IMG/VR virus record: IMGVR_UViG_2778261687_000004
Coordinates: 1-14,113 of that record
DNA: 14,113 bases
Origin: a virus
Lineage: Duplodnaviria > Heunggongvirae > Uroviricota > Caudoviricetes
Strand: one strand, 5' to 3'
The notes under the pieces are model-generated. The model searched no databases and had not been told where the DNA came from. It saw nothing but the letters and a program-made list of their open reading frames with translations. Position numbers and translations under genes: made by a program. Below, one piece after another: positions 1,435 to 13,665 of the stretch (within the stretch, counting starts at the first letter, position 1; each line of letters begins with the position of its first letter).

Positions 1435-1641
1435 CTTCATTTTCACTTTTTTAAATCCAACGACAGACGGCTGGCATTTAAGTATTGTGAAATATTATCA
1501 AATGTAATCATCATTGATTTACAAAAGATACATTTTGCCCCGAAAGGATTCATGTCAGAAACATCAAAAGATGATGTTCTATACTGGGAACCATGACAAC
1601 ACGGGCATCTAAAGTGAATATGGTTTGTAATATTGTCTACC

Positions 1642-1854
1642 TCAAAGCGCCACTACATGAACAGCGGCAGGACCTTTAGGTCCGTTCTCAATACCAAATT
1701 CAACTTCCTGATTCTCAGTTAATGTTTTGAAATCGTTGCTCTGAATTGCTGAGAAATGGACAAACACATCTTTGCTGCCATCTTTCGGCGTGATGAAACC
1801 AAAACCTTTTTCAGGGTTAAACCATTTCACTAAACCAGTCATTTTGTTAGACAT
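1642..1854 (-). CDS. cspI: Cold-shock protein, CspA family (70 aa)
   Basis: [38 protein letters not shown]... contains the canonical cold-shock domain RNP motifs (KGFGFI, VFVHF). Paralog assignment is by synteny next to the lysis cassette. Confidence 0.88.
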
Positions 1855-2216
1855 AATTATTACCTTTTGAAGAAATTAGCCCTTGGGCAGAATGGTCCGA
1901 AAAAAAATATCAGAGAGAAAAACCAACAAGGAAATCTCAAGAGGTACAAATAATAAAATTATAACAATGACTGCTTCAGATAAATTTGTAACAAACCAGA
2001 ACACCATTAACGCATGATTAACCACCCATAGCAAGGATTACTTTTGTAAAGAAAAACACAGCAATGAAAGAATAGCTTTATTTATTAATAAAACGTGTCA
2101 TTCTGATTAAGACCTTTTATCTTACCCTTAAGATTTCAGGAATTTTGGCTCATGGAAGAGTCCTTTTTATTTAAATTTTACATTCCGCGATGTAAATGTT
2201 CCGATTTAATATTACC

Positions 2217-4243: not shown

Positions 4244-4524
4244 GAGATTGTGGTGCTTTTTGTGGGAGTCATCCACTTACGCACTTTGTTTTGCCATGCC
4301 AGCAGTTAGCTTCTGCTGTAAAACTATTCATGCAGCAAACCTGCACTTCACCACAATGGTTAGCATACTTTTCCTGATTAAGATTTTGCCAAATATGCTA
4401 GCCATTGTTTCATGTATTGGACCTCCTTACTTTTTATTAAAGAGATCCAATATTCACTACTCTGTCCGTATCTCTACTCAGGCATCAGCCTTCTTCGTTA
4501 TCGTATACAGACGAGCGATGAATT

Positions 4525-4740
4525 TTAATCAGTAATGATGACATTTGCTGCTGCAGGACCTTTAGCACCACTCTCTATAGAGAAGGTAACCTTTTGACCT
4601 TCAAATAAGGTTCGATAATTATCATTCTGAATCGCAGAAAAATGCACAAACACATCTTTACTACCATCAACAGGAGAAATAAAGCCGAAACCTTTATCAG
4701 CGTTAAACCATTTTACTAAACCAGTCATTTTATTTGACAT
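4525..4740 (-). CDS. cspB: Cold-shock protein, CspA family (71 aa)
   Basis: [67 protein letters not shown]...; RBS AAGGAA; long 5' leader. Confidence 0.88.
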
Positions 4741-4757
4741 TCTACATTCCTTAACTT

Positions 4758-4769
4758 GAGCCTTTCGGC
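4758..4769 (-). promoter_or_regulatory. csp 5'-UTR 'upstream box'-like element (GCCGAAAGGCTC) just 5' of the cspB SD
   Basis: Minus strand reads ATGCCGAAAGGCTCAAGTTAAGGAATGTAGA-ATG. This is one mismatch from the cspA-family upstream-box consensus GCCGAAAGGCACA as I recall it. Confidence 0.5.
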
Positions 4770-5040
4770 ATAAATGGTTTGCATAACAGAAACGACTTCG
4801 TACTTAATTGGAGAGACTCAAAGAAGGAATAAGTGAATAACACCTGAAATGAGAACTGCTTTAGTAAACTACTTCGTATATCGTCTGTTCTTCAAACCGA
4901 CGCAATCATTAACGCATAGTTGAACATATGAAGCAATGTTTATTTTAGACATCCAGCCATCTTCAACCCCATCAAAAAACTATAGCTTTCTTCAGGAACG
5001 TGTGTATAGTGCGCCAAGTTATCAGTATTAAGGAATTTTT

Positions 5041-9885: not shown

Positions 9886-9973
9886 GAAAAATCCCCCAGA
9901 GAATTGTCTGGGGACATTTTAGAATGGTTCAAAGGGGACATTACAGCTTGGTGTTAACAATAGCCTGCTTCTC

Positions 9974-9989
9974 CGTGCCTTTCGGCACG
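9974..9989 (-). other. GNRA-tetraloop hairpin (CGTGCC-GAAA-GGCACG) resembling a csp 'upstream box', followed by SD-like GGAGAAG, with no nearby start codon
   Basis: Minus strand reads ACGTGCCGAAAGGCACGGAGAAGCAGGC; GCCGAAAGGCAC matches the cspA-family upstream-box consensus as I recall it. Confidence 0.4.
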
Positions 9990-10219
9990 TAAGAGGCTAA
10001 CCTACATGTGTCTAGCATGAAATTGGCCTCAGATTAATGTTAAGCGTCTTGCAGGACGCGTAATGTTAACTGGGGCTTTTCTCTATCTGCCGTTGGTGTC
10101 CATGCCCGAGGCAGATAGCCTCAAGCACCCGCAGTCATTCTACTTAACTAAGATTTCCCCGCAAACCGTTTTTGTCCAGCACAGTAAATATCCAACTAAA
10201 CCAATGGAGTTCGCTGTAT

Positions 10220-12021: not shown

Positions 12022-12187
12022 CATCATCAATGAGTTATCTTTTACCACATCAATTATGTTAGCTATAGCATACAAAATCACTTGACCGATATGTTAGTCA
12101 TGGCTAATCTTGTTTGCATCAACACACCGCACGGTGTTCTCAGCAAACAGTTCCGCTACCCCAGCGTTAAGGGGAAATGAGGTCAGC

Positions 12188-12344: not shown

Positions 12345-12473
12345 ATGGATTTCGACACAATCATGGAAAAGGCTTACGAAGAATACTTCGAAGGCCTTGC
12401 CGAAGGCGAAGAAGCTCTCAGCTTCAGTGAGTTTAAACAGGCGCTTTCCAGTTCGGCAAAATCTAACGGCTGA
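12345..12473 (+). CDS. ydfB: Small acidic prophage protein YdfB (42 aa)
   Basis: ATG 12345 starts 2 nt after the ydfA stop, with SD AGGTGAG; MDFDTIMEKAYEEYFEGLAEGEEALSFSEFKQALSSSAKSNG*. Below the track cutoff. Confidence 0.65.
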   Translation: MDFDTIMEKAYEEYFEGLAEGEEALSFSEFKQALSSSAKSNG

Positions 12474-12502
12474 TAAGCGAAACAGCACCGCGAGGAATCA
12501 GT

Positions 12503-12721
12503 ATGCAGAAACGAGAACCCGTCATCATCGCGCCAGACTATACCGATGATGAACTTTATGAGTGGATGCGCCAGAAAATTAATGCAGCGCAGGATCTGAA
12601 ATGGGCTAATGAAGCCAGGGCTAAGCAGGCTGAAAATCTGTCCGCTCTGGAGCAGGATATCACCAATCTGGAAAAAGCAGCGGCATTAAGCATTGCCAGA
12701 ATGATTACATACCCGCGTTAG
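12503..12721 (+). CDS. ydfC: Prophage protein YdfC (72 aa)
   Basis: SD GAGGAA 7 nt upstream; MQKREPVIIAPDYTDDELYEWMRQKINAAQDLKWANEARAK... Confidence 0.78.
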   Translation: MQKREPVIIAPDYTDDELYEWMRQKINAAQDLKWANEARAKQAENLSALEQDITNLEKAAALSIARMITYPR

Positions 12722-13061
12722 TAGCTAATCAACAAAGCTAAGGTTAGTAATTAAGGAGTTCTCCACGGGTGAGGTGGAGTGCGTGCGCCGGACACGGGTG
12801 CGCATCCGGAACTGACAGTTTACTGAAAGGATATTTCCCTGAAAAGTCAGACCATAACGCGAAAGCGCACGGCGAGGTAGCTGGTTCATAGATAGCCTGT
12901 CGTTAAATTTTCGTCGACCGTGCGCTTCCGGTTGTGGCAACCCGCGAAATGGCGCGGCGGTAAGTATGGCGGGGTTATTCCTTCCCCGTTGAGGACACCG
13001 GGTTGTCAGGTTGACCATACGCTTAAGTGACAACCCCGCTGCAACGCCCTCTGTTATCAAT

Positions 13062-13114
13062 TTTCTGGTGACGTTTGGCGGTATCAGTTTTACTCCGTGA
13101 CTGCTCTGCCGCCC
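13062..13114 (+). ncRNA. dicF: DicF small regulatory RNA (about 53 nt; ftsZ-targeting), processed from the dicB operon transcript
   Basis: TTTCTGGTGACGTTTGGCGGTATCAGTTTTACTCCGTGACTGCTCTGCCGCCC followed by TTTTT (13115-13119), between ydfC and dicB; recognised from memory of the DicF sequence; preceded by a GC-rich structured region. Confidence 0.8.
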
Positions 13115-13288
13115 TTTTTAAAGTGAATTTTGTGATGTGGTGAATGCGGCTGAGCGCACGCGGAACAGTTAAAACCAAAAACAGTGTTATGGGTGGATTC
13201 TCTGTATCCGGCGTTAATTGTTAACTGGTTAACGTCACCTGGAGGCACCAGGCACTGCATCACAAAATTCATTGTTGAGGACGCGATA

Positions 13289-13477
13289 ATGAAAACGTTA
13301 TTACCAAACGTTAATACGTCTGAAGGTTGTTTTGAAATTGGTGTCACTATCAGTAACCCAGTATTTACTGAAGATGCCATTAACAAGAGAAAACAAGAAC
13401 GGGAGCTATTAAATAAAATATGCATTGTTTCAATGCTGGCTCGTTTACGTCTGATGCCAAAAGGATGTGCACAATGA
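13289..13477 (+). CDS. dicB: Cell-division inhibitor DicB (62 aa)
   Basis: SD GAGGA 7 nt upstream of ATG 13289; MKTLLPNVNTSEGCFEIGVTISNPVFTEDAINKRKQERELLNKICIVSMLARLRLMPKGCAQ. Confidence 0.85.
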   Translation: MKTLLPNVNTSEGCFEIGVTISNPVFTEDAINKRKQERELLNKICIVSMLARLRLMPKGCAQ

Positions 13478-13665
13478 ATTCAGCATTTGTGCTTGTTCTG
13501 ACAGTTTTTCTTGTTTCCGGAGAGCCAGTTGATATTGCAGTCAGTGTTCACAGGACAATGCAGGAGTGTATGACTGCAGCAACCGAACAGAAAATTCCCG
13601 GTAACTGTTACCCGGTCGATAAAGTTATTCACCAGGATAATATCGAAATCCCGGCAGGTCTTTAA
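13474..13665 (+). CDS. ydfD: YdfD (63 aa), small membrane protein reported as a lysis-inducing toxin; start overlaps dicB stop (ATGA)
   Basis: MNSAFVLVLTVFLVSGEPVDIAVSVHRTMQECMTAATEQKIPGNCYPVDKVIHQDNIEIPAGL; N-terminal TM helix. Confidence 0.8.
   Translation: MNSAFVLVLTVFLVSGEPVDIAVSVHRTMQECMTAATEQKIPGNCYPVDKVIHQDNIEIPAGL

What the first reader, a model, noticed from the sequence alone, without database searches (positions are those of the whole stretch)
12722..13288. DicF sRNA embedded in a long, GC-rich structured spacer inside the dicB operon
Between ydfC and dicB, about 570 nt are non-coding on the sense strand; the only ORFs are antisense and implausible. The region has dense inverted repeats (for example GTGCGCGCCGGACACGGGTGCGCATCCGG) and contains the recognisable 53-nt DicF sequence ending in a terminator-like GCCGCCC-TTTTT, consistent with DicF being released from the polycistronic transcript by endonucleolytic processing.
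Basis: partly seen in the sequence, partly recalled or inferred. Interest (0 to 1): 0.4.

Follow-up and report, generated by a model that had tools for sequence, protein, structure and literature searches.

The report
DicF small RNA and its processing spacer
This is the long-known DicF cell-division small RNA of the E. coli Qin prophage, sitting in a non-coding spacer whose folded parts are the signals that cut it out of the operon transcript; one 124-base folded part is widespread but unnamed.

Summary
The observation and the interpretation both hold. Rfam finds DicF at 13063-13114 (76.7 bits, threshold 48). That matches K-12 gene b1574, which maps to 13062-13114. ydfC ends at 12721, dicB starts at 13289, and nothing in the 567 nt between them behaves like a gene.

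The spacer is a mosaic of four RNA modules:
- An imperfect stem at 12852-12937. Its 3' side carries the published RNase III cut that makes the 190-nt DicF precursor (about 12929/30).
- A 124-nt multi-helix domain at 12927-13050, which I call module B.
- An RNase E-type site (AA|UUU, 13061/62), then DicF and its terminator.
- A 150-nt STnc100-like leader (13124-13271) closed by a 19-bp helix. This helix holds the second published RNase III site and runs down to the dicB ribosome-binding site.

All of this is already known biology (1989-2023 literature), so interest is low.

The one new item is module B. It is absent from Rfam and unannotated. It occurs in 81% of complete E. coli genomes and in phage P1. 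Covariation supports its fold. It is always followed by a terminator, but the small-RNA tail between them is swappable. It is not a put antiterminator homologue. Its function is unknown.

The parts
12082..12110 (+). Predicted dicB-operon promoter (TTGACC, 17 nt spacer, TAATCT). The inferred transcription start is about 12117.
   Evidence: Read directly from the sequence. It lies between dicA and ydfA, where the literature places dicBp. The published RNase III site at +813/814 then falls at 12929/30, which is 190 nt before the end of the U-run at 13119. The start site is an inference.
12503..12721 (+). ydfC, the last coding gene before the spacer.
   Evidence: RefSeq annotation of identical DNA; ORF.
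12761..12850 (+).
   Evidence: Minimum-free-energy fold. This stretch recurs in other phages with hairpin-loop replacements and a 1-nt indel. Function unknown.
12852..12937 (+). Long imperfect stem, the upstream RNase III processing site. Core helix 12860-12872/12918-12930. The inferred cut at about 12929/12930 makes the 5' end of the 190-nt DicF precursor.
   Evidence: Inverted repeat I2. Fold z = -2.75. The RNase III dependence of the 190-nt form comes from PMC10448788. Related loci keep the stem while its tip varies, and some use a wholly different pair of strands. K-12 differs at 12870 (T instead of C), giving U.G instead of C-G.
12927..13050 (+). Module B: a conserved 124-nt multi-helix RNA domain forming the 5' two-thirds of the 190-nt precursor.
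- P0: 12931-38/13038-45
- Ha: 12942-46/12953-57
- Hb: 12959-61/12997-99
- Stem I: 12970-74/12984-88, with a CU-rich loop
- Stem II: 13000-08/13028-36
- Proposed pseudoknot: 12964-69 with 13015-20
   Evidence: Covariance model R1 scores 146 bits here. Covariation: 94-96% of cells paired against 33-55% when partners are slid, and 10-11 pairs changed on both sides against about 5 in shuffles. RNAalifold recovers the five helices independently. No Rfam family matches. Found in 4417 of 5426 complete E. coli genomes, unannotated in every record listed; in about 500 plasmid records, mostly non-mobilizable and, among those listed, about 85-105 kb, the size of P1; and in phage P1.
13051..13062 (+). Single-stranded linker with an RNase E-type cleavage site. 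AA|UUU at 13061/13062 gives the 5' end of the 53-nt DicF.
   Evidence: Sequence CUGUUAUCAA|UUUUCUGG fits the RNase E preference for an AU-rich site with U at +2 (my own knowledge of that motif). RNase E dependence comes from PMC10448788.
13062..13119 (+). DicF small RNA (13062-13114) with its terminator hairpin (13077-13113) and U-run (13115-13119).
   Evidence: Rfam RF00039, 76.7 bits. K-12 b1574 maps here. Apart from 12870, the whole spacer including DicF is identical to K-12.
13124..13271 (+). STnc100-like structured leader of dicB, closed by a 19-bp helix (13124-13142/13253-13271). This is the downstream RNase III site. The 72-nt DicF 3' end at about 13133 pairs with 13262.
   Evidence: Inverted repeat I1. 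Fold z = -4.5. Rfam RF02076 scores 34.4 bits, below its gathering score of 47, E 1e-5. The 72-nt RNase III product is from PMC5069750. The helix is kept across 56 variants through G-C/G.U changes and one bulge.
13277..13477 (+). dicB ribosome-binding site (GAGGA, 13277-13281) and dicB coding sequence (13289-13477).
   Evidence: Annotation. In the fold the base of the leader helix pairs the DicF U-run and following bases (13115-13123) with 13272-13281, so the GAGGA is predicted to be paired. That pairing is an inference.

Best explanation
The region is the ydfC-dicB intercistronic spacer of a Qin-type lambdoid prophage. It carries the known Hfq-dependent small RNA DicF. The operon is transcribed from dicBp, upstream of ydfA.

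Upstream processing. A long imperfect stem (12852-12937) is cut by RNase III at about 12929/30. Termination at the DicF hairpin and U-run (13119) then gives the 190-nt species. RNase E cuts the AU-rich linker at 13061/62 and frees the 53-nt DicF.

Read-through transcripts. Polymerases that pass the terminator transcribe a second structured domain, whose 19-bp closing helix (13124-42/13253-71) is cut by RNase III. This gives the 72-nt DicF 3' end and a dicB mRNA with a short leader.

What is shown. The DicF identity and position, the helices, and their conservation are shown here. The nuclease dependence is shown in the literature for K-12.

What is inferred.
- The exact cut coordinates.
- A folding switch: the 5' strand of module B's closing helix (GUUGUGG) is first held in the RNase III stem and is released by the cut.
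- The leader helix masks the dicB ribosome-binding site until it is processed.

Module B (12927-13050) is a conserved folded RNA domain of the precursor. Its own role is unknown. My best guess is a folding and stability scaffold that presents a swappable seed-plus-terminator tail for RNase E release.
For: - Rfam DicF, 76.7 bits; same place as K-12 b1574.
- No CDS annotated in the interval; no Pfam hit for any ORF there.
- The two top inverted repeats coincide with the two published RNase III sites (PMC10448788; PMC5069750).
- Two independent calculations converge on 12929/30: 190 nt back from the U-run end, and +813/814 from a promoter-like site at 12082-12110.
- 13133, the 72-nt 3' end, is the pairing partner of 13262 in the leader helix.
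- The K-12/window difference at 12870 keeps the pair.
- Module B covariation.
- The leader helix is kept across 56 variants.
- Every module B copy that could be scored in the fetched loci (129) is followed within 130 nt by a hairpin and T-run: 128 by the automatic test and the last by eye. The intervening tails fall into at least 8 classes.
Against: - Cut sites were not measured here. The green-marked base of the paper's Fig. S1 is not in the held text, and the transcription start is predicted, not mapped.
- The 1,146-nt transcript length in PMC10448788 fits an end at 13262 rather than at the terminator, so my reading of their coordinates is an inference.
- The simple terminator scan did not list the DicF hairpin because its loop is too long for that tool.
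- Module B alone does not fold better than shuffles (z = -0.5). Its covariation comes from closely related sequences in only a few lineages (lambdoid prophages and P1-like phages).
- Rac-type phages keep the DicF-like terminator and the leader without module B, so module B is not needed for that layout.
Confidence: 0.9

Rival explanations
1. Module B is a cis-acting processive antiterminator RNA. It would work like HK022 put, letting RNA polymerase read through the DicF terminator and later terminators of an early-left operon that has no N protein.
For: - Every copy that could be scored in the fetched loci (129) lies 30-110 nt upstream of an intrinsic terminator, with early genes beyond it.
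- In P1 it starts about 20 nt after the Pban start, ahead of a strong terminator and the tRNA-tci-ban genes.
- In phage Ayreon it lies between the PL-like promoter with its terminator and all early-left genes.
- No N-like ORF is seen in Qin or Ayreon.
- Both terminated and read-through transcripts exist in K-12.
- Its conserved loops and junctions suggest a specific binding partner.
Against: - Model R1 finds nothing at HK022 putL or putR (best hit in that locus has E > 1).
- R1 finds nothing at the annotated HK639 putL-like RNA at 34187-34312.
- Rac-type phages have the same terminator, leader and kil layout without module B.
- In Qin it lies about 810 nt from the promoter.
- There is no experimental hint of antitermination.
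Confidence: 0.12
2. The spacer, or part of it, encodes small proteins: the 40-aa ORF at 12769-12891 with a TAAGGAG nine bases upstream, the 36-aa ORF at 12920-13030, or an N-terminally extended DicB starting at 13184.
For: - PHROG families match the 36-aa ORF (phrog_8854, E 7e-12) and the 13184-13288 extension (phrog_24763, E 3e-22).
- Phage records annotate 'hypothetical proteins' over this DNA.
- There is an SD-like TAAGGAG at 12753-12759.
Against: - Frequent 1-nt length variants inside the 36-aa ORF (124-nt versus 125-nt copies of module B) break its frame.
- The changes in module B are compensatory for RNA helices.
- The GTG start of the 40-aa ORF is lost in some variants (GGGTCAGG), and a 1-nt insertion occurs in others.
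- No Pfam hit. NCBI's pipeline calls no CDS here in K-12 or ATCC 8739.
- PHROG families built from automatic ORF calls on conserved DNA are not evidence of translation.
Confidence: 0.04
3. Apart from DicF, the spacer is decayed prophage DNA with no function. Its hairpins are incidental to GC-rich sequence.
For: - Qin is a cryptic prophage.
- Module B alone folds no better than shuffles.
- Much of the conservation is among near-identical E. coli prophages.
Against: - The modules recur separately in intact, plaque-forming phages (P1, Ayreon, Stx phages, Rac-SA53) in the same operon position.
- Compensatory changes keep the helices.
- The two main helices coincide with mapped RNase III processing.
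Confidence: 0.05
4. DicF has its own promoter inside the spacer and is an independent gene rather than a processing product.
For: One older study suggested a promoter upstream of dicB (cited in PMC10448788).
Against: - No sigma-70-like site on the + strand of the spacer.
Confidence: 0.03

Closest known systems
DicF RNA (Rfam RF00039; E. coli K-12 gene b1574)
   Same: Full-length match at 76.7 bits. Same operon position between ydfC and dicB. DicF and the rest of the spacer are identical to K-12 except at 12870, which lies upstream of DicF. Same terminator.
   Different: Nothing of substance. The window is not K-12 itself: it is 100% identical to ATCC 8739 over 12400-13600 and differs from K-12 at 12870.
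STnc100 / PasD prophage small-RNA family (Rfam RF02076)
   Same: The 13112-13321 stretch aligns to the whole model, including the closing helix and inner hairpins, with E 1e-5. Related leaders in Rac-SA53 score 43.8 bits and a P1 stretch scores 33.4 bits.
   Different: The score is below the curated threshold (34.4 against 47). Here the element is the leader of dicB and an RNase III site, not a free-standing small RNA. PasD copies are reported next to phage sialidase/esterase genes, which is a different context.
put antiterminator RNAs of phages HK022 and HK639
   Same: A folded RNA of similar size on the sense strand of an early operon, upstream of terminators, in phages without an N gene.
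   Different: No sequence or structure similarity is detectable with a covariance model. put has two stem-loops, whereas module B has five helices and a proposed pseudoknot. No functional test exists.
'dicF-like region' annotated in phage P1 (AF234173, 68472-68573)
   Same: It is module B. Model R1 scores 95 bits at 68405-68526 of the record, just after the Pban promoters.
   Different: P1 lacks the DicF sequence itself; Rfam DicF gives no hit there at E <= 0.01. Module B is followed instead by a different tail and a different terminator (GCCCATCTTCGGGTGGGC-T6). The P1 label therefore refers to the precursor domain, not to DicF.
RNase III processing stems between phage genes, such as the lambda N leader site and the T7 intergenic sites (from my own knowledge, not tested here)
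   Same: Long imperfect helices in an early phage transcript, cut by host RNase III just upstream of a gene's ribosome-binding site.
   Different: Here two such stems bracket a small RNA. The small RNA also needs RNase E and a terminator to mature.

Membership tests
DicF RNA (RF00039) | Covariance-model score at or above the curated gathering score (48 bits). | tested here: met
   76.7 bits, E 8e-16, model positions 1-52 of 52, at 13063-13114 on the + strand.
DicF RNA (RF00039) | Location between ydfC and dicB in a dicA/dicC-controlled prophage operon. | tested here: met
   Gene order dicC, dicA, ydfA, ydfB, ydfC, DicF, dicB, ydfD.
DicF RNA (RF00039) | 3' Rho-independent terminator hairpin followed by a U-run. 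| tested here: met
   The Rfam structure line pairs 13077-13113, and TTTTT lies at 13115-13119.
DicF RNA (RF00039) | 5' end made by RNase E, and longer forms made by RNase III. | not testable with these tools
   The sequence fits (AA|UUU at 13061/62; helices at both published RNase III sites). The cleavage itself is known only from the literature for K-12.
DicF RNA (RF00039) | Antisense pairing with ftsZ mRNA, and Hfq binding. | not tested
   ftsZ is not in the window. DicF is identical to K-12 DicF, for which this has been shown (PMC5069750).
STnc100 (RF02076) | Covariance-model score at or above the gathering score (47 bits). | tested here: not met
   34.4 bits, E 9.7e-6, model positions 1-206 of 206, at 13112-13321. 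It is a probable distant relative, not a curated member.
put antiterminator RNA (HK022/HK639) | Sequence and structure similarity to putL or putR. | tested here: not met
   Model R1, run with filters off, gives no hit at HK022 putL or putR, or at the annotated HK639 putL-like RNA.
put antiterminator RNA (HK022/HK639) | Lies on the sense strand downstream of an early promoter and upstream of terminators. | tested here: met
   P1 (about 20 nt after Pban), Ayreon (about 280 nt after a PL-like promoter) and Qin (about 810 nt). A terminator follows in all 129 copies that could be scored.
put antiterminator RNA (HK022/HK639) | Terminator read-through that depends on the RNA and on the beta-prime zinc-binding domain. 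| not testable with these tools
   Needs reporter or in vitro transcription assays.
RNase III substrate | About two turns (roughly 20 bp) of mostly uninterrupted double-stranded RNA. | tested here: met
   13124-13142/13253-13271 is 19 bp, extended to about 28 pairs in the fold. 12852-12937 has about 22 pairs with small internal loops.
Protein-coding gene within 12722-13288 | Reading frame kept among homologues. | tested here: not met
   1-nt indels fall inside the candidate ORFs, and one start codon is lost.

The most novel reading that the evidence does not exclude
Module B (12927-13050) is an autonomous, mobile, structured RNA family not yet described as such. It rides at the head of early operons of lambdoid prophages and P1-like phage-plasmids. 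There it controls what happens at the terminator that always follows it, for example RNA-mediated read-through in phages without an N protein, while serving as a common scaffold for interchangeable small-RNA tails, of which DicF is only one. That it is a conserved folded RNA is likely (about 0.75). The probability given here is for the specific claim of a new regulatory mechanism.
Probability: 0.15. Interest if true: 0.65.

Novelty: already known. Interest (0 to 1): 0.22.

Why it matters

What the follow-up adds is a base-level map that ties the published RNase III and RNase E products to specific helices. It also shows that the 'spacer' is built from separately exchangeable RNA modules.

If module B has a function of its own, it would be among the most common unannotated structured RNAs in E. 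coli: it is present in four of five complete genomes, often in several copies. It could also explain how N-less lambdoid phages and the P1 ban operon get past an early terminator.

Tried and rejected
- put homology. I compared module B by eye with HK022 putL and putR and with a covariance model against HK022 and HK639. No match.
- tRNA-like element. ARAGORN found none in 12600-13400.
- Coding potential. Pfam found nothing. The two PHROG hits were set aside because of frame-breaking indels.
- Pas small RNAs. PasA and PasD looked like candidates for the DicF/STnc100 positions, but they flank a late-region sialidase gene and no sequences were available.
- Species-wide scan. My scan of species-representative genomes used too short a pattern and returned almost only chance hits. 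Only Escherichia albertii was real, so the taxonomic range beyond the E. coli, phage and plasmid collections is not established.
- Papers not held. King 2011 on put-like RNAs, Lobocka 2004 on P1, and Faubladier & Bouche 1994 on dicF-like prophage sequences could not be read. The last may already describe conservation of the DicF flanks.
- A loop/3'-flank pseudoknot around stem I. Considered by eye, but the pairing is not kept in P1-type copies, so I dropped it.
- DicF seed complementarity. The 9-nt match between the DicF seed (13067-75) and 13231-39 is about what chance gives for a region this size, so I make no claim from it.

Full report
**Where we are.** The window is a Qin-type lambdoid prophage of E. 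coli. Positions 12400-13600 are 100% identical to E. coli ATCC 8739, and 4752 of 5426 complete genomes hold a match to this stretch. RefSeq annotation of that identical stretch gives the gene order dicC, dicA, ydfA, ydfB, ydfC, dicB, ydfD. K-12 MG1655 has the same order plus an ncRNA, dicF (b1574). By offset, ydfC is 12503-12721, dicF is 13062-13114 and dicB is 13289-13477. Across the spacer the window differs from K-12 at a single base, 12870.

**Checking the observation.** Rfam at gathering threshold reports DicF (RF00039) at 13063-13114 on the + strand, with 76.7 bits against a threshold of 48, over the full length of the model. The interval 12722-13288 is 567 nt without an annotated CDS.

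It folds better than shuffled sequence:
- z = -2.9 for 12722-13125
- z = -4.5 for 13115-13300
- z = -2.75 for the stem at 12845-12945

The spacer is 50% GC, and 56% at 12860-13060, against 44% for the window.

Two details need correcting. The quoted example string is not in the window; the true sequence at 12779-12809 has two more bases. Short sense-strand ORFs do exist.

**What the literature already says.**
- DicF is cut from the polycistronic transcript that starts at dicBp.
- RNase E is needed for the 53-nt form.
- RNase III is needed for a 190-nt form, whose 5' end was mapped between positions 813 and 814.
- No internal promoter was found.
- Transcripts of 1,146 and 1,608 nt were inferred (PMC10448788).
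- An earlier summary of the 1990 work adds that the terminator gives the 53-nt 3' end, and that RNase III cutting of the full-length mRNA gives a 72-nt form (PMC5069750).

**Tying those products to the sequence.** A sigma-70-like promoter, TTGACC-17-TAATCT, lies at 12082-12110, between dicA and ydfA. This predicts a transcription start near 12117. Position +813/814 then falls at 12929/30. Counting 190 nt back from the end of the U-run (13119) gives 12930. The two estimates agree.

That point lies in the 3' strand of a long imperfect stem, 12852-12937. Its core is the second-longest inverted repeat of the spacer (12860-72/12918-30). The window/K-12 difference at 12870 changes a C-G pair to U.G in that core.

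The 53-nt 5' end, 13061/62, lies in CUGUUAUCAA|UUUUCUGG. This is an AU-rich single-stranded site of the kind RNase E prefers (the motif is from my own knowledge).

A 72-nt DicF ends at 13133. This lies in the 5' arm of the longest inverted repeat (13124-42/13253-71), and its pairing partner is 13262. The sum 12117 + 1146 - 1 is also 13262, and 12117 + 1608 - 1 is 13724, just past ydfD and a hairpin at 13703-16. These coincidences support the map, but the exact cut sites remain inferences.

**The downstream domain.** The stretch 13112-13321 aligns to the whole Rfam STnc100 model at 34.4 bits. That is below the threshold of 47, with E 1e-5.

Among 56 sequence variants in related loci the flanks and the closing helix are kept, through G-C/G.U changes and one bulge. 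An inner hairpin is freely replaced. The last 25 nt change with the downstream gene: dicB, kil, or a third type. In Rac-SA53 the same leader (43.8 bits) precedes kilR.

In the fold the helix base pairs the DicF U-run with the dicB ribosome-binding site (GAGGA, 13277-81). Processing or melting of this helix may therefore set DicB translation. This is an inference.

**Module B.** BLAST against phages showed that query positions 210-332 travel on their own. They occur in phage Ayreon, in Stx2c phages and in P1, where the record calls them a 'dicF-like region' just after the Pban promoters.

Alignment shows a conserved core followed in each phage by a different tail and terminator. Two pattern scans of viral contigs gave about 130 copies.

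From 25 diverse copies I derived five helices and a possible pseudoknot:
- On the MAFFT alignment, 94% of cells pair, against 33-55% when partners are slid. Eleven pairs change on both sides, against 4.5 +/- 1.6 in shuffles.
- On 57 distinct model-aligned copies the figures are 95.6% paired and 10 pairs.
- RNAalifold independently recovers the five helices.

The caveat is that the copies are close relatives from a few lineages, so the number of independent events is small.

No Rfam family matches module B. It is present in 4417 of 5426 complete E. coli genomes, with a median of 2 copies and up to 8, and no feature is annotated under it in any record listed. It is also in about 500 plasmid records, mostly non-mobilizable and, among those listed, about 85-105 kb, the size of P1.

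Every one of 129 copies that could be scored is followed within 130 nt by a hairpin and T-run: 128 by the automatic test and one by eye. The intervening tails fall into at least 8 classes, and DicF is one of them. Rac-type phages lack module B but keep the terminator and leader.

**Is module B coding?** PHROG families match two small sense ORFs. Against that, 124-nt and 125-nt copies differ by a single base inside one ORF, another ORF loses its start codon and gains a 1-nt insertion, Pfam finds nothing, and the substitutions are those expected of RNA helices. I read the PHROG hits as automatic ORF calls on conserved DNA.

**Is module B a put RNA?** Its position suggests this: after an early promoter, before a terminator, in phages with no N-like gene. 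However, model R1, run with filters off, finds nothing at HK022 putL or putR, or at the HK639 element annotated as putL-like. Membership is therefore rejected. A put-like function is not excluded, but it has no direct support.

**A folding switch (inference).** The strand GUUGUGG (12931-37) can pair upstream with CCAUAAC (12852-58), which lengthens the RNase III stem. It can also pair downstream with CUGCAAC, which closes module B. Other phage types keep the same arrangement with quite different upstream strands, for example CACAACGAUGAGAGCA against UGCUCUCUUCGUUGUG. The RNase III cut would free the strand and let module B fold.

**Verdict.** The finding is real, correctly interpreted, and already known. 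The only part that may be new is module B as a distinct, widespread, unannotated RNA domain of unknown function.

Noticed in passing
window 12927-13050 (+): A conserved 124-nt folded RNA domain upstream of DicF. It is absent from Rfam and has no annotated feature under it in any record listed. It occurs in 81% of complete E. coli genomes, in about 500 plasmid records (mostly non-mobilizable; listed ones about 85-105 kb, P1-sized) and in phage P1. It is always followed by a terminator, with interchangeable tails between.
   Followed up: yes
window 12931-12937 with 12852-12858 or 13039-13045: The same strand, GUUGUGG, can pair either upstream (extending the RNase III stem) or downstream (closing module B). 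This suggests a folding switch triggered by the RNase III cut.
   Followed up: partly
window 13067-13075 and 13231-13239: The DicF seed GGUGACGUU is perfectly complementary to AACGUCACC inside the dicB leader. A 9-nt match is about what chance gives in a region this size, and the leader sequence is also conserved in phages without the DicF seed.
   Followed up: partly
window 13115-13123 with 13272-13281: In the predicted fold, the DicF terminator U-run and the bases after it pair with the stretch that holds the dicB ribosome-binding site (GAGGA). Kil-type leaders have AAAAA at the matching place.
   Followed up: partly
window 12870: This is the only difference from K-12 in the spacer (C here, T in K-12). 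It changes a C-G pair to U.G in the RNase III stem.
   Followed up: yes
window 1615-2000 (-) and 4509-4901 (-): Two matches to the cspA thermoregulator leader (112.8 and 158.8 bits). These are probably the cold-shock genes of Qin, cspI and cspB.
   Followed up: no
window 9959-10130 (-): A match to the sok antitoxin RNA (104 bits), as expected for the hokD/relBE region of Qin.
   Followed up: no
L003 40-228 (-), phage Ayreon: C4 antisense RNA (80.7 bits) and isrK (58.9 bits) lie side by side in the immunity region of a phage that also carries module B.
   Followed up: no
L002 3842-3961 (+), phage P1: A partial STnc100-like match (33.4 bits) lies just upstream of tciA in the ban operon. P1 therefore carries both module B and an STnc100-like leader, about 1.3 kb apart.
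   Followed up: no
L015 4666-4813 (-): One P1-type copy of module B has a 23-nt insertion that duplicates part of stem I.
   Followed up: no
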